NCBI RefSeq assembly: GCF_004010195.1 | Contig: NC_057740.1 | Location: 37,769,267-37,833,266, forward strand | From: Chiloscyllium plagiosum | Lineage: Eukaryota | DNA length: 64,000 nt | Direction of reading: 5' to 3' | In this document: in pieces, positions 3,278-55,816 of the stretch | Layout of the letters: the number at the start of each line of letters is the position of its first letter | Numbering within the stretch: the first letter of the stretch is position 1 | The notes under the pieces: model-generated | What the model was told of the DNA's origin: nothing | Seen by the model: only the letters and a program-made list of their open reading frames with translations | Database searches by the model: none | Program-made: the position numbers and the translations under genes

Positions 3278-4249
3278 GAGTTTATTATTTTGTCAAAAAC
3301 TCAATCAACTTTTTGAAACATGATTTCCCATGCATAAAGCCAAGTATTTCTCCTGAATTACTCCTCTTTGCTTCAGTATGGTGTATTTCGCCAGTACGAA
3401 GAAGCTGACTTTAAGCTTAAAACCAGAAGCCAAATTCAGGGAGACTACAACTGTTCTTTTTATTTGACTTGTTATCCCCTGACATGCGTGGCCAAATATG
3501 CAATCAAACCACATAATGATGTTCTTATCAATTGTACAAATCAGCTGGGCCACAGTTCAGTTTGTATCTGCTCATGCATTGTAAAATGTGTCAGATTTGG
3601 AATTGAGGATTAGTTTAAATGAGAGGGTAATCTAAATTAGGGGGAGAAGGGGAGTAAATCTCAAGAATTGAAGTGAATAAGTGGTTATTTAGAATGAGTT
3701 TCATTGACTTGTGCCAGATTACGAGTGTGCAATTCCGAGTCAATTATTTTGACTAAAGCCTTATTTAAGTATAAAAATGACAAGTTTATTTTTGTTGCTT
3801 CAGCAAAAACAGCTGCTTACTCTTGTCCACAGAGATAGAAAGAAATCTGAATGCACAGCCTACAGCCGTATGTGGATGAGGGTGTGTCTGGGTCACGTTT
3901 GTAGTTCAAAATGATTTAAATGATGCTGCCTTTTAGTATGATCTCACCCAACCTTCTCTTTTTCTAAATATGTTCAGTATTTTTACTGGAATTAACTGGA
4001 TAAACAATGTTGTGATTACAGCAAGACAAATCGTTAAGCCTTTCGGGTTTTGACCTTTTGCAGTGGAGTTAGATGTGCAGGCGCTTAAATGTATGTTGAA
4101 CATTTCCTAAAACAGATTATAGCCTGTGTGGATGAACAATATTGGGTTCGGAGATGGCATCTGGTATCTAGGTAGTTCAGTCAGAGCGTATTTCCCCAGT
4201 CTGGATGTTGTCAATATTAACTTTTTGAAGATTTAAAAAAAATGTCAGG

Positions 4250-4920
4250 AATCGCAGGTAGATAGAATAGTGAAGAAGGCGTTTGGTATGCTTTCCTTTA
4301 TTGGTCAGAATATTGAGTACAGGAGTTGGGATGTCACATTGCGGCTGTACAGGACATTAGTTAGGCCACTGTTGGAATATTGCGTGCAATTCTGGTCTCC
4401 TTCCTATCGGAAAGATGTTGTGAAACTTGAAAGGGTCCAGAAAAGATTTACAAGGATGTTGCCAGGGTTGGAGGATTTGAGCTGTTGGAAGAGGCTGAAC
4501 AGGCTGGGGCTGTTTTCCCTGGAGTGTCGGAGGCTGTGAGGGTGACTTTATAGAGGTTTACAAAATGATGAGGGGCATGGATAGGATAAATAGACAAAGT
4601 CTTTTCCCTGGGGTGGGGTAGTCCAGAACTAGAGGGCATAGGTTTAGGGTGAGAGGAGAAAGATGTATAAGAGACCTAAGGGGCAACTTTTTCATGCAGA
4701 GGGTGGTACGTGTATGGAATGAGCTGCCAGAGGATGTAGTGGAGGCTGGTACAATGCAATATTTAAGAGGCATTTGGATGGGTATATGAATAGGAAGAGT
4801 TTGGAGGGACATTGGCCGGGTGCTGGCAGGTGGGACTAGATTGGGTTGGGACATCTGGTCGGCATGGACAGGTTGGACCAAAGGATCTGTTTCCATGCTG
4901 TACATCTCTATGATTCTATG
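4250..4920 (+). mobile_element. HER1/CR1 LINE 3' fragment
   Basis: ORF 4270-4539 (LYRTLVRPLLEYCVQFWSP...RLNRLGLFSLE); 3' UTR ends ctgtttccatgctgtacatctctatgattctatg. Confidence 0.93.
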
Positions 4921-6221
4921 TTGTAAAAATATATGGAAAAGTATTGAGATTGTGATGTTGTAAAGTAATTGACCGGTTCAGAAGAATTGCTTTGAATTTT
5001 TGTTGATCATGTCTTTCTGAAAGAAATTCTTCTAACTGTTGCTATGTTGTCTGTTGTAAATTGGGCTCTTGCGTTTATTTTCTGAAAGCTTATGTAGGAT
5101 CTTTAGTAAGAATGAAATCTCAAAGGGAATATTCATTTGAGAATATTTGCTGTGGGGCATTAACCTTACATGTGGTAAACCCCTTGTGACATGAAACCTC
5201 TTGATCTTCATTTTATCCAGTTTGACTTCTCCTTTCAATAATCTTTTATATTGTGTCCCAAATTTGACTTTAATCTTTAAAATTTCCTGTTATGCAAACT
5301 TCACATTATCAACGTTTTGTAAACTGGATTGAAAGTCTTTTGGAGCTTTTAGTTAATATTTCAATTTTTCAAAACTATTAATTTATTTTTTATGGCTACA
5401 TTTTTTGATTTCTTAAAATAATAGAGCGGTGTTACTGGCGTGGAGTGAAACTTAAGTAAAAATTATACTGGTGTAATTGGAAAAGGATTGCAAACCTGTC
5501 AACAGGATTGAGTCTTGATTGTTGTGATCAAGCGAGTACAGTCAATTTGAAACCAGCAGGGAGGGGAATTGCTGGAGTTTTGGAGAGTTAGCAGCACAGA
5601 ACTAGTTTGAATGCTGGTAAAATGTATGTTTGTAAGAAAAACAGATCCATTGGAAGGCAAGTAACGAGGGTGCACACCTCCACTCATCTGTCTTGTCTTA
5701 ATGTTATTACAATTAAGCAGCTCTTCCTGGTAGGCTTTTCCCTATTTTTGGTTGATGATTTGCAGCTGAAAACATATTGACTTTCATGAAGAGCATCCAT
5801 CTCATGGACCTAGGCCTGTCCAATTCCAACAGCCTCCCTGCAGTAAAAACACTGTTCTTAAAGAAATTCTAGCTTGGCAGCTGATAAAATCCATTTCTTT
5901 CGAAGTAAAAGTCAGTCCGCCTTATCTCCTGATGTTACAAATTCTGTAAAGAATCACAGGATCTGAATTCAGGATTGGCATCTTCAATAAAAGCTAACCA
6001 TTTCTTCATTGTGACAGATCCTATCCACGCACAAGAATCATTTACTCTACCCCTTTGTTTTTGAGAAGCATTGTTTATAGGAAAACAGACTAACAAAAAT
6101 GTTGCCACTGACAATGGATGGAGGGAACAATGGAATATTAAATAAAAAATAACCAGGGCTCTATGGAGTGGCAGTGCTTGTCAGTGCCAGTACAAATGGT
6201 TAAAATAAGAAGGTTATTTAT

Positions 6222-6929
6222 TTGGGAGTTGTCTCATCTTGAGTCAGAAGATTGTGGTTTCTATCTTATTTTAGGGATTGAAACACAAAACTTGAGGCGC
6301 TCATTTCAATGTCGTGTGTAGGGAATGCTGACCTTTGAGGTTTTGTCTTTCCAACAGTGTGTTATTACTTTGTTGTTATGAAGAGGAGCTGTAAAGGGCT
6401 CCCTAGTACCCTGGTGGTTACTTATCTCTCAATGAACATCACTAAAACAGATTATCTGGTCATGGTGGCATTGCTAATTGTAGGAGCTTCCTGTGTGCAA
6501 ATTATCTGACATTATATCAGTGAGTACGCTTCCAAAGTACATAATCGGCTGTAAGATGCCTTGAGATATCCTGAGTTCAGGTAAGATGCTGTCGAAATAC
6601 AATTTGAGAATTTCAATAGTACCTCAAGGTTTGAGCATGTAATCTAGATTGACCTACAGTGTAGTGCAGGGGAGGGACTTTCCAATGAGCTTTGTTGGGC
6701 ATGTGGATGTTGGATGAGGGTGAGATCTACTCATTGTCTCTGGTGTCGTTGAATAGATTGGGAGCACTTGGAGAGCACCCTGAAGTGTACCATATTTGAT
6801 TCCCTCTAGAGAGGAAATTTGGAAAGCATTTTTTAAAAAAAATGTAGTTATACATTTTCATACAAAGAAGTTATTGTACTCCAATCTTAGTATAGAACAG
6901 TGTTCCAGCTGTACTGCTGTGTCTTTATT
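6222..6929 (+). repeat. Copy 1 of a ~0.7 kb local direct duplication
   Basis: Colinear with 8681-8701 plus 9383-10061; both end in ctgtactgctgtgtctttatt. Confidence 0.9.
6235..6605 (+). mobile_element. SacSINE1-like DeuSINE, degraded
   Basis: aacatcactaaaacagattatctggtcat..ttgtaggagctt..tgtgcaaatt..aaagtac..ggctgtaag; same motif at ~9575, ~25560, ~26805 and ~41650. Confidence 0.65.
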
Positions 6930-7705
6930 TGTACAGTACTTATTATTTATAGCAAAAGGTTTAGAGGCAAGGTGGGTAAAAATATTTTCACTTCTTTACT
7001 GGAGTTTGGAAAAATCTACCTCAAAAGATGGTGGAGGCTAATTCCATGAATTTTAAAAAGAGAGTTGAACAGATGCTTGAGGCTGACCCTATAGAATTAC
7101 AGAAGGTGGGACTGTGCATGACTGCTGTTTCAAAGCATGGGGACAAAAGACTGATTTGTTTTCTCTTGTGCCGCAGGTTTCTATAACTTGATGAACTGCT
7201 ACACCATAGTATATGACCTTTTCCTTTCTGGCCCGTGTAGTGCCTGATGCAATGATTATAACAGTGAGGTGATCAGTGTGCAGACATCACTGCCACAGAC
7301 AAGGTTTAACAGTGGCTGACAAAAGGACATAGAATAAAAAAAAAGCAAAAGATAGACCCGGATTATGTATTAGTAGCTTTAAAATTTGCAACTCCTCTTC
7401 TGTCATGTGCCTGCGGGTTACTACACTCTGAGGTAGGCAATGAATATACAGATGTGTATGCAAATTAGGGTGTAGAATCAGGCAATTCAGCTCTACTAAT
7501 CCAGGTGGTCTTGTGCGTTACTCTTGAGCAGAGTTCTTATTTCTTTTGTTCATTGTTTATATACTTGTCCCCTTGTGCTTCATCTACGAAAACAATTTAA
7601 CTATGAATGTTGCCATAGTTTCTATTTGACTGTAGCCCCTTGATTTGTAAGTAAGCTATTCTTGCTCTCTGTTTAAAACCTCTTAGCTATATTCTTGTTC
7701 TTGAC

Positions 7706-7798
7706 CTTCCTGAAGAAGGGTTATACCCAAAACATTGACTTCTCTACCTCCTGATCCTGCCTGGCTTGCTGTGTTCTTCCAGCCTCCTGTTTGTCTAC
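7706..7798 (+). mobile_element. Penelope pLTR-derived short element with a decayed hammerhead motif
   Basis: CTGAAGA-a-gggt tat accc-AAAA-catt at 7710-7736, followed by ctcctgatcctgcctggcttgctgtgttcttccagc. Confidence 0.75.
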
Positions 7799-8701
7799 TA
7801 TTGACTGCAGGCAACAATTTGCACCTTATCTGCCTGCTTCACTTTATTTTCATGTTTTAAACATTTTTATCACATCGTTATTTAGTCTATATACTCTGAT
7901 GGAAAAAAAGACCTCAGTCTTAACACACAAAGCAGTTGGACTTCAAAATTGTACCTCCTGTAAAATGTCCATTGTCTTGCTGTTGTGTGGAGACCAATAC
8001 TGCACGCTGTACTCTAAGGTTTGTCTTACTATTTTATATAAGGAGCCAACATTTCCTCTTGGCTTTTGCATTGTACACTTCTCATGACAAAACCTAGAAT
8101 TCTTTTTATTCCCATTACATTTATTAAACTGAGGTGCAGATTTCAATGTCCTGTGAACTCTTACCCCATAATCTCTCTGCAGTCAATGACACCAAGCCCA
8201 CTTCCCTTTGGAGTATAATTATTGATGTTTTCTTAACAAAATATATTGTCTCCAATTGCTACTTAGCCCATTCATGAGAACAACAATAATGGTGCTTTGT
8301 ACAGTTTGGGGAACAACAGTGACATCAGCTGGAACTGTAGGAATAGCAAAGTTCTGAAATAAATAATGCAAATAAATCTAGCAGTTAAACAGAGGAATGA
8401 TTTGTGTTGTCACATGTTTTATTTACTGTTATAGATTTTTCACAATAGTACGTGAAATCTGTAAAGCTTCAGTCCTTTTTTGGAGGCCTAAGGAATTCAA
8501 AATCTGTTTATAAACTGCAACCTAAATCTCCCCTACTTCCTCAAAAAGGGGTCCTGTGACACTACTGTTACTCTACTAAACTGAATTTTAAAGATTCACT
8601 GAGCTTTTTCTTAAATGCTTGTCCACATATGCACGTTTCAGAAAGTCTTGCCCTATTCTTTACCATGTCAGACATGGACTTGGGAGCATTTTTGTCTCAT
8701 G

Positions 8702-9382
8702 TGTTACAAAGATGTGAGTGTACTGTACCTTTGAGAGTTAAAAGCTACCAGAACTATCTTTCACAGCACCAAGTGTTCTGAACAAGATATAATGTAACAT
8801 TTGGTCAAACAACTCGTTTAACTGGTAGCCTGGAAATGACAAAACAAATTCGAATTAGGCCAATCTATTTAAATTATACCCCAAAAACTACCAAACTCCA
8901 GTCAAGTTTGAATTTAGTATATTGACGATCTTAAAAGCCAGGGACGCAATTCAATGCTTTGGAGGTATAAGACCGAGGAAAATTGAACAGTTGGGAGGAG
9001 AACTGCCAAGCTACCAGCATCTGCAGACTGCCCGGGAAAATAGCTCTCTTAAAGCTACCTTTATCGATCAGTAACCTGTAAAACTGAAATCCCTAAGAAG
9101 GAGAGAAGAAGATTGAGGGAGATATGAAGTGAGGATTCGACATTTGGCTGAAAATTTTTGAATTTTTGTTAAATCTTAATCAGGGGCTTTATCAGACTAG
9201 TATTATAGAAGGGTAAGGTAGAGGAAGGAGTTGTAAATAGTTAATTATTCTTTTATACTTTAAGAAATTTGTTAATTGATATTTAAATAGTTCTTGGCCT
9301 CTCGAATTTTCAGTTTACTACACGTGATAAATCTTTTCTGTGTTGATACTTTAAGCAGGAGGATTTACCCCGTGTCGTAACA
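8702..9382 (+). mobile_element. Putative solo LTR (Gypsy/ERV-type), 681 bp
   Basis: Termini TGTTAC...GTAACA; internal TATA-like ggtataagac (~8965); interrupts copy 2 of the duplication where copy 1 is continuous; no clean TSD. Confidence 0.7.
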
Positions 9383-10061: not shown

Positions 10062-11191
10062 GCCGTAAATATTGCATCAGCTAATGTGGAGTTCCAGACA
10101 GCTGTGTATTGGGCAAATATACTGACATTTACAGAATATTAACAGAGGAGTCTGTTTCGCTAAACATGCAGCAGAATTAATTTTCAATAATGAGACACTT
10201 TAATATTCCAATGTTGAGTGTGCTGAAGGATAGTATGATTGTTTATGTCACAATCATCATGCTGTTCAGGATGTAACGTGATTCTTTCTCATATCCTATT
10301 TATAGCATCAATCCAATCTGAACTGTTCTGAATCTCCTGGACAATTTATTTTCCAGTTGATTGTGAAGATAGTGCTTCATACATTTGTGAATGCTCTTCT
10401 GACACCTTGCAGACTTTGGACAGAGGATAGAAGAGAACATCATAATGAGGAGCAGCCATCGGCAGTTCAGCCCCTTGAACCTGTTCCATCATTCAGTATG
10501 ATCCTGGCTGATCTCCTCTCGACCTCAACTCCACTTTAGTGTGCTCTCCATAGCCCTTCAACCTACTACTAATTAAAAAGCTGTCTTTCTCTCCTCCTTA
10601 AATGTCTCAGCATCCACCGTACTTTGGGGTAGTGAATTTCCCAGATTCACCACCCTTTCAGAGAAGCAATTTCTCTTCATCTCTGCTTTAAAATCTGCTT
10701 CCCTTTATCTAGAATCTTTTGTTCTTGATCATCCCAAATAAGGAAACATTTTCTCAACGTCCACTTCAACAAACCCCTTTAGCTTCTAACATACCTCACT
10801 TAGAACTCCTCTCATTCTTCTAAACTCCAGAGAGTATCAACCTAAACTGCTCAATCTCTCCTTATGAGACAAACCCTTATCTCTGGAATCAATCAAGTGA
10901 ACCTCCTCTGAACTGCCTCCAATGCAACCACATTCACCCCCCACCTCAAGGGACAAAAATTTCTATGCAACTCCAGATGCTGACTCACTAATGCCTAGTA
11001 CAGAGGAACCTCAGTTATCTGAAGGACACGCGTGGGGTGTGTTACGTTTGGTTAATCTAATTCTGGATAATCGAATGCCGGATAACATAGTTTAGCCGAG
11101 CATTGGAACATTGCAAACTTGCTAAATAATCTGATATGGAAATGTGTTGCTGGAAAAGCGCAGCAGGTCAGGCAGCATCTAGGGAACAGGA

Positions 11192-11229
11192 GAATCGACG
11201 TTTCGGTCATTTGCCCTTCTTCAGGAATG
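11192..11229 (-). ncRNA. Minimal type I hammerhead ribozyme motif in a Penelope pLTR
   Basis: CATTC CTGAAGA A GGGC AAAT GACC GAAA CGTC GATTC; core intact, one stem II mismatch, weak stem I. Confidence 0.7.
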
Positions 11230-12030
11230 AGGAAGGTTGGTGCAGCAGGCTAAGATNNNNNNNNNNNNNNNNNNNNNNNNNNNNNNNNNNNNNNNNNNNN
11301 NNNNNNNNNNNNNNNNNNNNNNNNNNNNNNNNNNNNNNNNNNNNNNNNNNNNNNNNNNNNNNNNNNNNNNNNNNNNNNNNNNNNNNNNNNNNNNNNNNNN
11401 NNNNNNNNNNNNNNNNNNNNNNNNNNNNNNNNNNNNNNNNNNNNNNNNNNNNNNNNNNNNNNNNNNNNNNNNNNNNNNNNNNNNNNNNNNNNNNNNNNNN
11501 NNNNNNNNNNNNNNNNNNNNNNNNNNNNNNNNNNNNNNNNNNNNNNNNNNNNNNNNNNNNNNNNNNNNNNNNNNNNNNNNNNNNNNNNNNNNNNNNNNNN
11601 NNNNNNNNNNNNNNNNNNNNNNNNNNNNNNNNNNNNNNNNNNNNNNNNNNNNNNNNNNNNNNNNNNNNNNNNNNNNNNNNNNNNNNNNNNCCGAGGTGAT
11701 GAGGTTATGGACGGTCTGGGAGATGATGGTTTGGTGGTGGGGGGTGGGGTCATGGTCAAGGGGGCAGTAGGAGGAGGTATCTGCGAGCTGGCGTTTGGCC
11801 TCAGCGGTGTAGAGGTCCTCATTTCCCCTCCCGCCAGCCTGTCTCAGTCAAATCCATCAAATTCAGCACCGCCTTCCTAACCTGCAATCTTCTTCCCGAC
11901 ATGTCTGCCCCCACCCCAGTCTGACCTATCACCCTCACCTTGTCCTCTTTCCACCTATCACATTTCCGACGCCCCTCCCCCAAGTCCCTCCTCCCTATCT
12001 TTTATCTTAGCCTGCTGGACCAACTTTCCT

Positions 12031-12068
12031 CATTCCTGAAGTAGGGCTAATGCCCGAAACGTCGATTC
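12031..12068 (+). ncRNA. Minimal hammerhead ribozyme motif, A9>U variant
   Basis: CATTC CTGAAGT A GGGC TAAT GCCC GAAA CGTC GATTC. Confidence 0.7.
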
Positions 12069-12771
12069 TCCTGTTCCCTAGATGCTGCCTGACCTGCTGC
12101 GCTTTTCCAGCAACACATTTCCATCTCTGATCTCCAGCATCTGCAGACCTCACTTTCTCCCTAAATAATCTAATATTTGGGTAATCGAATGCCGTTTAAT
12201 CGAGGTTCCTCTGACAGTTGTAGCAATGCTTCCCTACTTTTAAAGTCTATTCCTTTAGCAATAAATGACAAAGTTCCATTTACCTTCCTTGTTACCTGCT
12301 GCATTTGCATAATAGTTTTCAGCAAGTCATGGAATGCGATTCAGTGAACTTGTTGTCTGGAAGGAAATTCTTCTCTTCTGTCTTGAGCTTCTTTTTGTTT
12401 CAATTTTGATCTTTTTTTATTCTTGGGCCAGTAGGATCAGTGGGTCAGCTGACCAGAATGTGGTGCAGAATAGAGCCTTTAGTGTGCATTCAATCTCCAC
12501 ACCGGCTGTGACAACATGGGAGATCTCTATTCACCTTTTCCACTCTTGTGCAGTGGTTACCCTCTGGTTACATATAAACAGTTGTCTGTGTCTAATGGAG
12601 AGGTATGTCAAATGTCCTCTGTAGATTATGGCTCCTTGCCATTTATTTATCCTATTCTCCCTTCCTTCTCCAGTTTGCTTTCTGTCACTTTATCCCCTTG
12701 TCATGTAATTAAGAGTTGTTCAGAAGTGTTTGGGAGTCTTTGCCCCCAGTGTTGCACTCAGTGCAGCAGAA

Positions 12772-38940: not shown

Positions 38941-39371
38941 ACACCTCCCCCCTTACCTCCCTCCAAGGCCCTAAACGAAACTTCCATATCCGACACAGAT
39001 TCACCTGCACCTCCACACACATCATCTATTGTATCCCCTGCACCCGATGTGGCCTCCTCTATATTGGGGAGACAGGCCGGCTACTTGCAGAGCGTTTCAG
39101 AGAACACCTCTGGGACACCCGCACAAACCAACCCATCCACCCTGTGGCTCAACACTTCAACTCCCCCTCCCACTCCACCAAGGATATGCAGGTCTTTGGA
39201 CTCCTCCATCGCCAGACCACAACAACACGACGGTTGGAGGAAGAGCGCCTCATCTTCCGCCTAGGAACCCTCCAACCACAAGGGATGAACTCGGATTTCA
39301 CCAGTTTCCTCATTTCCCCTCCCCCCACCCTGTCTCAGTCAAATCCATCGAATTCAGCACCGCCTTCCTAA
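38940..39371 (+). pseudogene. Penelope GIY-YIG endonuclease domain (5'-truncated element, frame open)
   Basis: FTCTSTHIIYCIPCTRCGLLYIGETGRLLAERFREH..PVAQHFN..RRLEEERLIFRLGTLQPQGMN: IIY..YIG, CxxC, and conserved R, E and N. Confidence 0.92.
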
Positions 39372-41279: not shown

Positions 41280-41815
41280 ACAGATTGGATGTTAAACTGA
41301 AGCCCCATCTGTAGCAATAAAATCATGTCCAATTATTTTGGAAGGAGCCTGGGTGTTCTCCACAGTCGTCTTGTCAATATTTATTCCTTGTCGAGAGTGT
41401 AGTGCTGGAAAAGCACAGCAGGTCAGGCAGCATCAGAGGAGCAGGAGAATTGACATTTCGGGCATAAGCCCTTCATCAGGAATGAGACTTGTGGGTCGGG
41501 GCTGAGAGATAAATGGGAGGGGGTGGGGTTTGGGAAAAGACCTTTCCCACCTATCTTCCTTCCAACCCCAGCACTACACTCTCGACTCTGAGCTTCAGCA
41601 TCTGCAGTCCTCACTTTCTCCTAATATTTATTCCTTGGCCAACATAACAAAAACAGATTATCTGGTCCTTAACATATTGCTGTTTGTTGCTGTGTGTAAA
41701 TTGGCTGCAGTGTTTTCTACTTCATAAAAGTATTTCCAAAAGTACTTCTTTGGCTGTGAAGCACTTTGAGATATCATGAAGTTGTGAAAGATGAAGTATA
41801 AATGTCTTTCTTTGA
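41280..41815 (+). mobile_element. SacSINE1-like element split by the 41391-41622 insertion
   Basis: aatatttattcc..aacataacaaaaacagattatctggtc..ggctgtgaagcactttgag. Confidence 0.65.
41391..41622 (-). mobile_element. Non-coding Penelope pLTR derivative with a hammerhead motif and inverted ends
   Basis: Perfect 15 bp TSD aatatttattccttg (41376-41390 and 41623-41637); minus-strand CTGATGA a gggc ttat gccc GAAA tgtc at ~41452-41479. Confidence 0.88.
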
Positions 41816-46676: not shown

Positions 46677-47755
46677 CGGACATCAAGATTGAATGGATAA
46701 ATACGATCATTCATTTCAACTTTCTACTTTGCAGTATGCACACACTGTTTCCATAAAAATGGATCCTTCCTATTAAAGACCAAAGACCTTGGGTGCAGGT
46801 TAATTGTGGTTCGTTGGGGAGTGCGGAGAAAGAAATCTGATTCAGCTGAATTTTCATGCTGTCATTATTAGAGTAGGAGAAATGCCAATTCATCGCTCGG
46901 TTATAAAAATGGCTGACTCCCGCATTGCTAACACTGGCAGAATCTTTAAAGACAAGTATTTGTTTCATTGCAAACTGTTCTTTATTTTGTTCTTGAAGAT
47001 TTGTGACACAATATTATAACACATTTTTTCTTTTCAAAGTGACCATTTTGACGTTAAATGCATGGTGTCCTGTGCCTAGGAAGTAGTAGTAATGCCACAA
47101 TTATTGGAAAATGTAACCCACTTTAAATATTCACCTACTTTTAATCGAATGAAAATTCAAGCAATTAAATGTAGCAATATATGCAAATTATTTCACTCTA
47201 TCTGTTCCACAGATCACAAGTGTTTTTTCTAAATTAAAACCTCTGAAATGATTTTGTGTGATTTATGTTTTTGTTTGTATCAATGCATCAGCACCCCTCT
47301 TTTTCCTGTATGTTTTGTATCTTAGCTCTGACCCTAGGGATAATCAATTGCCATTGACTGATAAGCCAAGGAACTTGGTACAGAGGGACAATGAAAGTAA
47401 AACCTGGTTTGTACACTTCAGCAACCACATTGACTTTAAACAGTTACTGTCAAACCATTTACTCTGTTGCTGCTGATTTTGGAATTTGTGTTTTGAATCC
47501 AATGGTAAAGTGTCAGCTTAATCTTTACCTGCCGTGCCAGAAAGTAGTGAAAGTAGTTTTCTCCAAAGAAAAGAATCCTTTTTCAAGGCTTCAAACCTCA
47601 TTAACGGAACACATTGATGTGATTGGTGTTCTCTCTAGATGGATTATTGGCTGGCTTTGTTACAGGTGCTCTGGAATTTGGGACTATTCTGGAGCGCATG
47701 ATGTTATCATGTGCGTGAGAATTAGCTCCATTTGCTTGCCACATCATCAATCCAG

Positions 47756-47992
47756 GAGAAAGTGAGGACTGTAGATGCTGCCGATCAGAGTCGAGAGTAT
47801 GATGCTGGAAAAGCACAGCAGGTCAGACAGCATCTGAGGAGCAGGAGAATCTACGTTTTGGGCATAAGCCCTTCATCAGGAATGAGCCTGGTTCATCTCA
47901 TTCCTGAGGAAGGGCTTATGCCCGAAATACCGACTCTCCTGCTCATCGGATGCTGCCTGACCTTTTCCAGCTTTTCCAGCACCACACTCTCG
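47756..47992. mobile_element. Fold-back Penelope pLTR derivative with two opposed hammerhead motifs
   Basis: Arms ~47790-47886 and ~47897-47994 around a 10 nt loop; TSD-like acatcatcaatccag and acatcaggaacccag (12/15). Confidence 0.85.
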
Positions 47993-49717
47993 ACATCAGG
48001 AACCCAGCAGATTTGATTTTCTTGGTCCAACCCACATTGTACAGTGGTGACTGTTGACACAGAAGAATCTCAAACCTTAACTTCCAGTTCCAACTTTGAA
48101 TGTCTCGATTGAATTTACCTCCACCAATTTCTGAGGCAATGCCTTCCAGATCCTAACCACGCGCTGCACAAGTTTTCCGCCTATCACTTTTGCTTCTTTT
48201 ATTAGAGACGTTAAACTTCTACCCTCGAGTTCTCAATCCTTTTATGAGTGGAAACATTTTCTCCCTGCGTACTATGTCCTAACTTTTAGATTTTGGATGA
48301 AACTTTTAGCTTTGTGCTTGTCCAAGAGCCCATGCTGACTTGGAAACCTTTGTGCATTGTCTACCAGTATTTGGCTTTGGTTGAAGTGCAGGTTGTTTGC
48401 TGTAGACCCACCTCGGCAGTGGAACAGCATGTAAAATGGGAGGACGAAATCACTTGAACAGAAGGAGAATTCTGAAGACTTGGTTCAACTTCTATTTATT
48501 GTTTGACAGTTCCAATCTACTCGGTTGATTTCAAGTGTCGATTGATTGTTCGTGCAAATATGGCTTAACGTTGACTTTCTGCTGCCGTTTAAACTAGATG
48601 GGACAAGTTGAAAATAGAACTTGGAATAGCAGCTGGTCATGTGGATTCTTGAATGCCTCTCCTCTACCTTTGAATAAGACCAGTACTGATTGTGTACCTG
48701 AATATTGCGTACCCTGATTCCATTCCCCTTTTTCTGGTAATGATGAGTTTGGTTTAATTATGTCATGCTTTTAGCTTAATGCCACTGGTTGTTCCTTACA
48801 GAAGTATACTTGTTTATTTGCCTTGTTTGGATCATGCAATGATGACTGTTCTTGTTGACTTCTCCTAGAGTCTAATCTTGACATTTTAAAAGCTTGAAAC
48901 CTCTTTGGGTTGGCTAAAAATGCCACAAACTTTTGTAAATTGAGACTGTGTCTCAATGCAGGTGGGTTTGCACTCTTTTGGCAGCATGGTGAGCCCAGTC
49001 ATTATGATGCCTTCTGAATATTTTCATCTCCTGTCCCTCCAAGATGGAGCAATAATAATGGCAATGTGCCCTTTCTGTTGAATGTTTCGAACTTTGCAGT
49101 TATGGGAATCTGAGTGGTTTACAGATACCACTTCAGATTGGTCTGATTTCTGAAGCGTTAGAAGTGGTGACCTTTCATTATTCTGTTTGTCTTTGTTTAT
49201 TACTTTATTCTGATTTGATTGCAGAGCGATCCAACATAATAAACCTCAAAACTCTTTACCTGTTCTTTTTGGGGCAAATCAGAAGCAGAGTTTTGTAGTT
49301 CAGAATTGTTGTAAGGCATCAGGAGGGTGTTTGGCCCACTGTGTCTGCACTAACTCTCCAAATGAACATCATGACTTGATAACAAGCTAAACTTTTACAC
49401 AACTTATTTAAAGGAAAAAGTCGCTTTGGTTACTCAACACGGCTGTTTTCGTACTTTCAGATTATCTTCAGATTTTGACAGCTGTGGAAATCAAATATTT
49501 GCTAATAGCAGAATCTACAGACGGGAGTGTTCGTAACTAAATTAATGTAAGGATGTGGAAATGCACTCCATTGTGCAGAGAGAAAAGGTTTTTAGGCAAA
49601 TCAATTTCTGTTAAGAATTGGTAGTCTTAAAGTAAAGAGAAAAATGTTGGAGTGTGTAGTGATAGCAACGGTTTGTTGACACTGATGTATTTGTATACAA
49701 AGCTCTATTTAGATCAC

Positions 49718-49849
49718 GAGGAGAAAGTGAGGTCTGCAGATGCTGGAGATCAAAGTTGAAACTTTATTGCTGGAACAGCACAGCAGGTCAGGCAGCATCC
49801 AGGGAACAGGAGATTCGACGTTTCGGGCACAGGCCCTTCTTCAGGAATC
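49718..49849 (-). mobile_element. Penelope pLTR 3' piece beginning at the hammerhead motif
   Basis: Similar to the reverse complement of 12031-12160; possible short TSD atcac. Confidence 0.85.
49812..49849 (-). ncRNA. Structurally intact minimal type I hammerhead ribozyme motif
   Basis: GATTC CTGAAGA A GGGC CTGT GCCC GAAA CGTC GAATC: 5 bp stem I, 4 bp stem II, palindromic ACGU, GUC cleavage triplet. Confidence 0.8.
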
Positions 49850-49899
49850 ACATCAATTACCTTTGAGAGTGCGGAATACTAACCAAAGATCAAGGTATG

Positions 49900-54634: not shown

Positions 54635-54838
54635 CTACGCTACTTTCTCCCCACCCCCACCCTCCTCTCATTTATCTCTCCACCCTTCAGGCACTCTGCC
54701 TGTATTCCTGATGAAGGGCTTTTGCCCGAAACTTTGATTTTCCTGCTTCTCGGATGCTGCCTGGACTGCTGTGCTTTTCCAGCACCATTCTACTCCAGAA
54801 TCTGGTTTCCAGCTGGTTTGCAGTCATTGTTTTTACCT
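54635..54838 (+). mobile_element. Penelope pLTR derivative with a hammerhead motif
   Basis: attc CTGATGA a gggc tttt gccc GAAA cttt gatt at 54704-54739; ggatgctgcctggactgctgtgcttttccagcac. Confidence 0.8.
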
Positions 54839-55816
54839 TTATTCAGTTGTGCAAAAAAGCCGGAGAAGTTGGGACTGTTTTCCTTTGAGAGATATCGGGG
54901 TTGTTTTCCTTGGAGAGAAGGTGGGACAAAGTGAGGACTGCAGATGCAGGAGATTAGACAGAGGGATTCAAAATCATGAGTCTGGACAGAGTAGGTAGGG
55001 AAAAAAACAGAGTTAATTTTAGCAGAATGGTGAAGAACCAGTGGTTTGAGGTAATTTGTCAGAAGGAGCAATGGTAACATGTGACAGACTGTTTTCACAT
55101 AGCAGGTGGTTGGGATCCAGAATACATTGTCTGAGTATGTGCTGGAGGCAGTTTCAGTTGAAGCATCATTGAGGGAGTTGGATCATTCTTATTGTCCATT
55201 GCAAAGGAAGAGTGGGCAGATCCCAGGAAGAAGGTAGTTGAGTGGCATTTGGTGAATTGCTCTTTCAGAGAGTCAGTATTGGTACAGTAGGCTGATTGGT
55301 TGCCTCCTCTCCTAGAATCATTCTGTGATTCCACATTATTTTCTGCTTAGTGCTGGCTGTGCAGAAGGCAAGACTGGGCTAAAATATGATGTCCCATACA
55401 TCTGGAATCCATACTATTGGAGAGGCACCAGGGTGTTGCAAGGACTCGACAGTTTTAGTTATGATATGAGATTGGATAAATTAGAGTTAAATTTGTTGGA
55501 GCAGTGGAGACCAAGGGAGGAGACGTAATTGAGATTTAGAAAATTATGGTGGGGGGGGGGGACATAGATATGGGAGCCAGGAAGAAACTTTTCCCCTTAT
55601 GAAGGGGTCAGTAATCAGGAGCATAGCTTAAGTTAAGGGGCAAGATGTTTAGAGAGGATGTAAGGACGGAAATGTATGACAAATAGTGGTGAGAAGAAGC
55701 CCTCAACTTTGAAAAAATATTTTGATGTTTACTTGCAATGCCAAGGCATACAAGGCTGGAAGTGCTGGAAAATGGGATTAGAATAATTTGATGTTTGTTT
55801 TGACCAGCACAGACTT

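What the first reader, a model, noticed from the sequence alone, without database searches (positions are those of the whole stretch)
49812..49849. Intact minimal hammerhead: best candidate for an active ribozyme
Seen: the minus strand reads GAUUC-CUGAAGA-A-GGGC(CUGU)GCCC-GAAA-C-GUC/GAAUC. All core nucleotides are present, stems I and II pair perfectly, and stem III is reduced to the palindrome ACGU. This copy has GAAUC after the cleavage site where 11192 and 12031 have GAUUC, which restores stem I. Established: HHRs with a loopless palindromic stem III are thought to cleave as dimers. The outermost stem I pair may come from flanking DNA.
Basis: partly seen in the sequence, partly recalled or inferred. 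Interest (0 to 1): 0.7.

Follow-up and report, generated by a model that had tools for sequence, protein, structure and literature searches.

The report
Hammerhead stub of young Penelope retroelement
The motif is a real, intact "minimal hammerhead" self-cutting-RNA motif at the front of a recent 134-base jumping-gene stub that has over a thousand letter-identical twins in this genome, and standing alone it likely does not cut itself, so it is an ordinary copy of a known kind rather than a special active ribozyme.

Summary
The 38-mer is exactly as described. It heads a 134-bp insertion (GTGAT duplicated on both sides; empty site seen in two public runs). The insertion is the pLTR plus 37-nt tail of a young Neptune-type Penelope-like element (RT, Cys linker, GIY-YIG).

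It is not a special copy. The identical 38-mer occurs 1,103 times and the 37-mer without the outer G 8,475 times. GAAUC marks the whole young subfamily, and the outer stem-I G belongs to the host target site. No intact same-strand partner lies near it, and published min-HHR monomers do not cleave. Tandem arrays elsewhere (L125) are better test subjects.

One family-level lead: 62 of 100 copies start 26-35 nt upstream of the cut site (mode: the A of an initiator-like TCATTCC) and only 3 of 100 start at it. A lone unexplained G often precedes that A. This fits copying of uncleaved, probably capped RNA. The scan already reported this family and the 5'-edge clustering on other DNA of this genome; the empty allele, initiator match and extra-G tally are added here. 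Known kind, low interest.

The parts
49847..49851 (-). Upstream copy of the 5-bp target-site duplication GTGAT. Its G (49849) supplies the outer stem-I pair; its AT overlaps the element's ATTC (microhomology).
   Evidence: empty-site joint 49712/49847 with 5 letters fitting both sides in X1 and X2
49717..49848 (-). Solo pLTR+tail insertion of a young Neptune-type Penelope-like element (129 bp strictly inserted, 49846-49718, plus junction microhomologies)
49812..49848 (-). Minimal type-I hammerhead: stem I AUUC/GAAU, CUGAAGA core 49844-49838, extra A 49837, stem II GGGC/GCCC 49836-49825, GAAA 49824-49821, palindromic ACGU 49821-49818, C17 49817, predicted cut 49817/49816
   Evidence: features listed in PMC4209133
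49845..49848 (-). ATTC: modal 5' end of family copies; in the parent it reads TCATTCC (initiator-like, inferred RNA start)
   Evidence: initiator consensus recalled
49754..49811 (-). Rest of the pLTR up to the inner 3' end-point (33 of 100 copies end 61-64 nt after the cut site)
49717..49753 (-). About 37-nt 'tail' between the two preferred 3' end-points (51 of 100 copies end 97-101 nt after the cut site); inferred outer reverse-transcription start
   Evidence: tail = stretch between two RT start sites in PMC11167929
49713..49717 (-). Downstream copy of the target-site duplication GTGAT

Best explanation
The motif is the minimal hammerhead at the 5' end of a 134-bp, target-duplication-flanked stub of a Penelope-like retroelement's end repeat, likely inserted recently by target-primed reverse transcription and likely not self-cleaving on its own. 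Shown: insertion anatomy, empty allele, thousands of identical copies, a parent with RT, Cys-rich linker and GIY-YIG, two fixed 3' end-points 37 nt apart, and 5' ends piled at the hammerhead's upstream edge. Inferred: the element's protein nicked the target, began cDNA synthesis internally at the tail end of the pLTR RNA, copied through the uncut hammerhead and ran off the RNA's 5' end at the A of TCATTCC. The hammerhead would cleave only as a cis dimer in tandem precursors or with the element's protein.
For: Empty site skipping 134 bases with a 5-letter overlap in contigs of X1 and X2. 40 best-scored genomic matches 99-100% identical over about 134 bp. Exact counts 17,460, 17,840, and 1,103 G / 725 A / 188 T / 6,459 C before ATTC. 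Parent ORF pieces: RT, linker CNRRRCNTC and GIY-YIG in L077 and L101 (Pfam GIY-YIG 22.7 bits against cut-off 22.6 in L101; RVT_1 E 9e-4, below cut-off). ORF start about 166 nt after the A of ATTC in read-through copies. 3' ends bimodal, 33 and 51 of 100. 5'-end rate per nucleotide 0.110 at 26-35 nt upstream of the cut site against 0.005 at 0-5 nt, 0.0075 at 6-25 nt and 0.014 at 36-60 nt. Literature: PMC4209133 (monomer inactive), PMC11167929 (uncleaved RNA is the dominant template; no reads ending at the cut site).
Against: No cleavage assay was possible, so inactivity of this copy is inferred from other species' motifs. Its 5-bp stem I is one pair longer than the parent's 4 bp. The 5-bp duplication is shorter than the 9-16 bp found in 34 of 166 tail-complete copies (that search required at least 9 bp). 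No full-length uninterrupted ORF was found in the loci fetched (gapped assembly). The 100-copy sample is the first 19.7 Mb of contig C1 and counts both arms of inverted pairs (46 of 100 are in inversions), so rows are not all independent. Four of about 107 copies (3, L280) do start within a few bases of the cut site.
Confidence: 0.88

Rival explanations
1. This copy is a working ribozyme that cuts a host or read-through minus-strand transcript, as a monomer, a trans dimer, or helped by the element's protein.
For: All core nucleotides and both stems are intact. The young subfamily has U-A where older window copies have a U-U mismatch in stem I. The PAc hammerhead cleaves when protein is present (PMC11167929). 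Family-derived reads exist on both strands in RNA run X19.
Against: No intact same-strand partner nearby. The ACGU/ACGU duplex is only -1.7 kcal/mol, and two 38-mers cofold preferentially into a stem-II-swapped, non-catalytic duplex at -24.1 kcal/mol. In X19, depth is 0 in the unique bins on both sides of the element and 98% of laid reads run on into unlike sequence, i.e. come from other copies (only about 2% of the run was read, so a weak test). The insertion is absent from some alleles, so it has no conserved host role.
Confidence: 0.07
2. The 5' pile-up at the hammerhead's upstream edge comes from something other than the RNA's start: RT release after unwinding a protein-bound hammerhead, self-priming, or endonuclease cutting at ATT in the pLTR. 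The insertion is otherwise as in the best explanation.
For: The peak is about 10 nt wide (26-35), not one base. PAc endonuclease prefers 5'-ATT-3' just downstream of its ORF-pLTR junction (PMC11167929). Self-priming was proposed for inverted junctions (PMC3846280). Many G's before ATTC are explained by microhomology (26 of 72 sampled) or stay unresolved (23 of 72).
Against: Single unexplained bases before ATTC were G in 7 of 72 sampled G-copies, A in 3 of 50 (after removing 11 recurrent palindrome-deletion centres) and T in 1 of 30. At the two neighbouring start positions none of 8 single extra bases was G. The 34 target sites tallied show no ATT requirement.
Confidence: 0.35
3. The motif is a chance match to the short hammerhead consensus inside an unrelated repeat.
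For: Fold z only -1.63; no Rfam hammerhead hit.
Against: It sits in a PLE pLTR, where min-HHRs are described (PMC4209133). It has the extra base at 9/10.1, G10.1-C11.1 and palindromic 15.2/16.2. A second family shows compensatory changes in all three stems.
Confidence: 0.02

Closest known systems
Minimal hammerheads (min-HHR) in pLTRs of metazoan Penelope-like elements (Cervera & De la Pena 2014, PMC4209133; parts 1-2 of 4 read: results and discussion)
   Same: Type-I core, no loop 3, palindromic 15.2/16.2, extra nucleotide between 9 and 10.1, G10.1-C11.1, short helix I, mostly solo copies from truncated PLEs
   Different: Helix II is only 4 bp (7-8 bp in Schistosoma). 8,475 letter-identical copies of one 37-mer, against about 4,000-9,000 heterogeneous motifs reported for coelacanth and Xenopus. 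Cartilaginous fishes are not named in the parts read.
Poseidon PAc of Anolis carolinensis (Frangieh et al. 2024, PMC11167929; parts 1-2 of 4 read)
   Same: Two 3' end-points bounding a 30-40 nt tail; both-strand priming fits the head-to-head pairs; uncleaved hammerhead RNA as template
   Different: This element has the Neptune-type Cys linker. Its ORF starts downstream of the tail (about +166), whereas the PAc ORF starts at stem II. A 5'-end hot spot at the hammerhead edge is not reported in the parts read.
Neptune clade of EN+ PLEs (defined in Craig et al. 2021, PMC8557442; passages read)
   Same: C-terminal GIY-YIG, CX2-5CxxC linker between RT and EN, pLTR, tail, inverted 5'-truncated partner
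   Different: The linker is shared with Nematis; no RT phylogeny was built here.
Non-LTR retrozymes as PLE derivatives (bioRxiv 10.64898/2026.07.22.740005; part 1 of 5 and passages read)
   Same: Short tandem units each holding a type-I hammerhead occur in this family (L125: intact motifs 194-224 bp apart; L115, L124); reported there in one chondrichthyan
   Different: The window copy is a solo monomer, which that study does not count as an active retrozyme.

Membership tests
min-HHR of metazoan PLEs | CUGANGA ... GAAA ... UH core complete | tested here: met
min-HHR of metazoan PLEs | Unpaired base between 9 and 10.1; G10.1-C11.1 pair | tested here: met
   A49837; G49836-C49825
min-HHR of metazoan PLEs | Palindromic 15.2/16.2, no loop 3 | tested here: met
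   ACGU 49821-49818; CG in 308 and GC in 15 of 354 motifs in fetched loci (loci were chosen for this family)
min-HHR of metazoan PLEs | Short helix I (4-5 bp) | tested here: met
   4 bp in the parent, 5 bp here with the host G
min-HHR of metazoan PLEs | Located in the pLTR of a PLE | tested here: met
   follows the EN and 3' UTR (L077) and precedes the ORF start (L149, L153) in genomic copies
min-HHR of metazoan PLEs | Self-cleavage as a dimer | not testable with these tools
   only folding energies: the double-hammerhead form of a natural tandem (L125) is -47.8 against MFE -53.0 kcal/mol
EN+ Penelope-like element | RT plus C-terminal GIY-YIG endonuclease | tested here: met
   fragments in L077 and L101; GIY-YIG just above its Pfam cut-off in one, RVT_1 below its cut-off; no single intact ORF recovered
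EN+ Penelope-like element | pLTR with optional 30-40 bp tail, inverted 5' partner, partial tandems | tested here: met
   37-nt tail; 46 of 100 copies in inversions; tandems in L096, L115, L124, L125
Neptune clade | CX2-5CxxC linker between RT and EN | tested here: met
   CNRRRCNTC in L077 and L101
Neptune clade | RT phylogeny (Neptune versus Nematis) | not tested
   no reference PLE set at hand; the preprint passage reports only Neptune and Poseidon in its vertebrates
Active non-LTR retrozyme | At least two consecutive tandem units with complete hammerheads | tested here: not met
   the window copy is solo; met by other loci such as L125

The most novel reading that the evidence does not exclude
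In this Neptune family the hammerhead is the very first structure of a capped Pol II transcript starting at the A of TCATTCC. Internal priming in the 5' pLTR of that uncleaved RNA, with run-off at the cap (copied as an extra G), mass-produces 95- and 132-bp hammerhead stubs. The genome's thousands of solo hammerheads would then be a fossil record of the PLE start site and of non-use of the cleavage product as template, pointing to a role of the motif as RNP handle or 5' gate rather than as maker of template ends.
Probability: 0.45. Interest if true: 0.5.

Novelty: new member of a known kind. Interest (0 to 1): 0.2.

Why it matters
As a single locus it matters little: it is one of more than a thousand identical stubs, and it is missing from some alleles. 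The family is more useful. It looks recently active, gives thousands of near-identical junctions, and bears on the open question of what PLE hammerheads do: templates appear to be uncleaved RNA starting right at the motif, in line with the in vitro result for PAc. It also offers natural tandem arrays for a cleavage test.

Tried and rejected
Rfam scan: no hammerhead model matched; not informative for a motif without helix III.

RNA evidence: no RNA holder listed. X20 laid 0 reads (no test). X19 laid 547 reads, nearly all from other copies, and no pile-up of starts or ends was listed; poly(A) single-cell reads are ill-suited to this. X1 is labelled 'RNA?' but covers the 20-kb stretch evenly at about 8x, so I treat it as DNA.

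Host-gene context was not established: no convincing long ORF near the locus; a Pfam scan of raw six-frame chunks failed on stop codons and was not repeated; no splice joints stood out.

A full-length ORF was sought in 43 read-through loci and not found.

'Extra A' before ATTC (14 of 50) was mostly a recurrent palindrome-centre deletion (11 of 14). I dropped those 11 after seeing them, so the extra-G comparison (7:4 against 0:8, Fisher p=0.013 on unweighted, stratified samples) is post hoc and only suggestive.

AATAAA near the inner end-point was considered as a poly(A) signal and set aside, because older copies lack it.

Literature searches: shark + penelope + hammerhead ribozyme (one review, where 'shark' only explains the name); penelope + pLTR + solo + shark; penelope + promoter terms. 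None described this family or a 5'-edge/cap-G signature in the listings or passages seen. Subscription papers, Repbase entries and supplements were not seen; the supplements of PMC4209133 and the preprint may list shark motifs.

Full report
Observation. Stems I and II are the predicted MFE structure (-10.0 kcal/mol, z -1.63; 13 of 200 shuffles fold as well), and Rfam has no hammerhead match in the window. The motif has every hallmark listed for metazoan PLE min-HHRs in PMC4209133: full core, an unpaired base between positions 9 and 10.1, G10.1-C11.1, palindromic 15.2/16.2 and a short helix I. A descriptor scan of the 400 fetched loci (1.41 Mb) found 354 motifs against 0 in a mononucleotide shuffle. 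The loci were chosen for this family, so that ratio is not an unbiased enrichment. The scan also picked up an unselected second family with paired changes in all three stems.

What it sits in. The motif begins a block that matches about a dozen other places in the window and, at 99-100% identity over about 134 bp, all 40 best-scored places in the 3.56-Gb genome. GTGAT flanks it on both sides (49851-49847, 49717-49713). Contigs of run X1 (1,610 nt, depth 8.95) and of run X2 (another organism label; 151 nt, depth 3) join 49712 to 49847 with five letters fitting both sides: the empty site. X15 contigs run into or stop at the element, as a filled allele would. So the insertion is recent and probably polymorphic, and the G of 'GAUUC' is in the host target site.

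Parent element. Upstream-extended copies lead through a pyrimidine-rich 3' UTR to an ORF end with RT, the linker CNRRRCNTC and a GIY-YIG domain (L077, L101). Read-through copies (153 exact) lead to an ORF starting about 166 nt after ATTC. By the linker criterion in PMC8557442 this is a Neptune-type element (Nematis not excluded by phylogeny). No intact ORF was recovered. Earlier notes of this scan call the genome shark-like; I did not test that.

Is this copy special? No. Exact genome counts of the 37-mer ATTC...GAATC are 6,459 after C (the parent base), 1,103 after G (the finding's exact 38-mer), 725 after A and 188 after T. In the sample of 100 copies, 40 carry the intact 37-mer. GAAUC therefore marks the young subfamily; older window copies have GAUUC, AAUUC, GACUC or GAUUU.

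Can it cleave? Dimer-type motifs need a second copy in the same RNA. The other minus-strand family copies at 47883, 41483 and 11228 are damaged (GAAA to AAAA; ACGU to AUGU with a stem-I mismatch; broken stem II). Two 38-mers cofold into a stem-II-swapped duplex rather than the active form, and even a natural tandem's double-hammerhead fold lies 5.2 kcal/mol above its MFE. Published monomers did not cleave; the PAc motif cleaved only with protein and was not needed for insertion. RNA run X19 shows family reads but none on the unique flanks; this is a shallow test. Tandem arrays (L125: intact motifs 194-224 bp apart; L115, L124) are the better candidates.

How such stubs arise. Among the first 100 exact matches on contig C1, 3' ends fall at two points, 61-64 nt (33 copies) and 97-101 nt (51 copies) after the cut site. 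They bound a 37-nt tail, like the two internal RT start sites of PAc. 5' ends fall 26-35 nt upstream of the cut site in 62 of 100 (mode 32 nt, 18 copies) and within 0-4 nt in 3 of 100, rates of 0.110 and 0.005 per nucleotide. An anchor further downstream added 7 copies in the same region, of which one starts at the cut site. So cleavage products were rarely, if ever, the templates. Both arms of inverted pairs are counted (46 of 100).

The start-site lead. The modal 5' base is the A of TCATTCC, which fits the Pol II initiator consensus (recalled). Internal Inr-type promoters are described for Drosophila Penelope and rotifer pLTRs (passages of PMC2377424 and PMC3846280). G makes up 55% of non-parental bases before ATTC. 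Classifying junctions, a single unexplained G was seen in 7 of 72 sampled G-copies, a single A in 14 of 50 (3 after removing 11 recurrent palindrome-deletion centres) and a single T in 1 of 30. At the neighbouring starts (29 and 30 sampled) none of 8 single extras was G. [quoted passage not shown] Against: 26 of 72 G's are explained by microhomology, 23 are unresolved, the peak is broad, and the filter was post hoc. In the window copy itself the G cannot be told from the target site.

Earlier findings. The scan has already filed this system on other DNA of this genome, including the 5'-edge clustering (e1-7858714, e1-9981659, e1-7789313, e1-7789469). I had reached the same reading before that look-up, and their agreement is not independent evidence. 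A word search for the cap and initiator idea returned nothing.

Verdict. A real, intact min-HHR at the head of a recent solo pLTR insertion of a Neptune-type PLE: a new member of a known kind, not a singular active ribozyme. Interest 0.2; the family-level start-site and cap reading has probability about 0.45 and interest 0.5 if true.

Noticed in passing
window 11147-12160: Head-to-head insertion of an older sister subfamily: minus-strand pLTR at 11228-11147, assembly gap, minus-strand RT fragment (11693-11847), plus-strand EN end, 3' UTR and pLTR with tail at 12032-12160.
   Followed up: partly
window 39024-39371: GIY-YIG end of the same PLE group (Pfam E 0.0023, below cut-off) joined to a LINE-like fragment, next to a gap.
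   Followed up: partly
window 47754-47981, 41400-41622, 54704-54954, 7707-7783: Further decayed pLTR copies, three of them in inverted pairs; 7707 belongs to a more distant family.
   Followed up: partly
L125 (G000:C8:24157500-24159000), L115, L124, L096: Short tandem arrays (units of about 194-224 bp) of pLTR plus ORF start, each with an intact hammerhead: retrozyme-like, natural dimer candidates.
   Followed up: partly
L193, L202-L204, L207, L215, L321, L324-L326, L328: The same palindrome-centre junction recurs in 11 unlinked loci, probably by a microhomology deletion in one arm of a GGAATTCC-centred inverted pair.
   Followed up: partly
L223, L225, L226, L231, L237, L238, L240: Seven loci share a double-hammerhead head: a diverged hammerhead copy directly followed by the standard one, suggesting a sub-lineage with two adjacent motifs in one RNA.
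   Followed up: no
fetched loci: A second min-HHR family with stem I AC/GT, stem II GGAG/CTCC and stem III AGCU, compensatory to this family in all stems.
   Followed up: partly
L099:4709-6587 (-); L051/L052:2111-3031 (+); L031:104-1120 (-): Neighbouring host or mobile ORFs seen in the ORF listing: a forkhead-type transcription factor exon, a glycosidase-like exon and a retroviral-type pol fragment (labels recalled, not tested).
   Followed up: no
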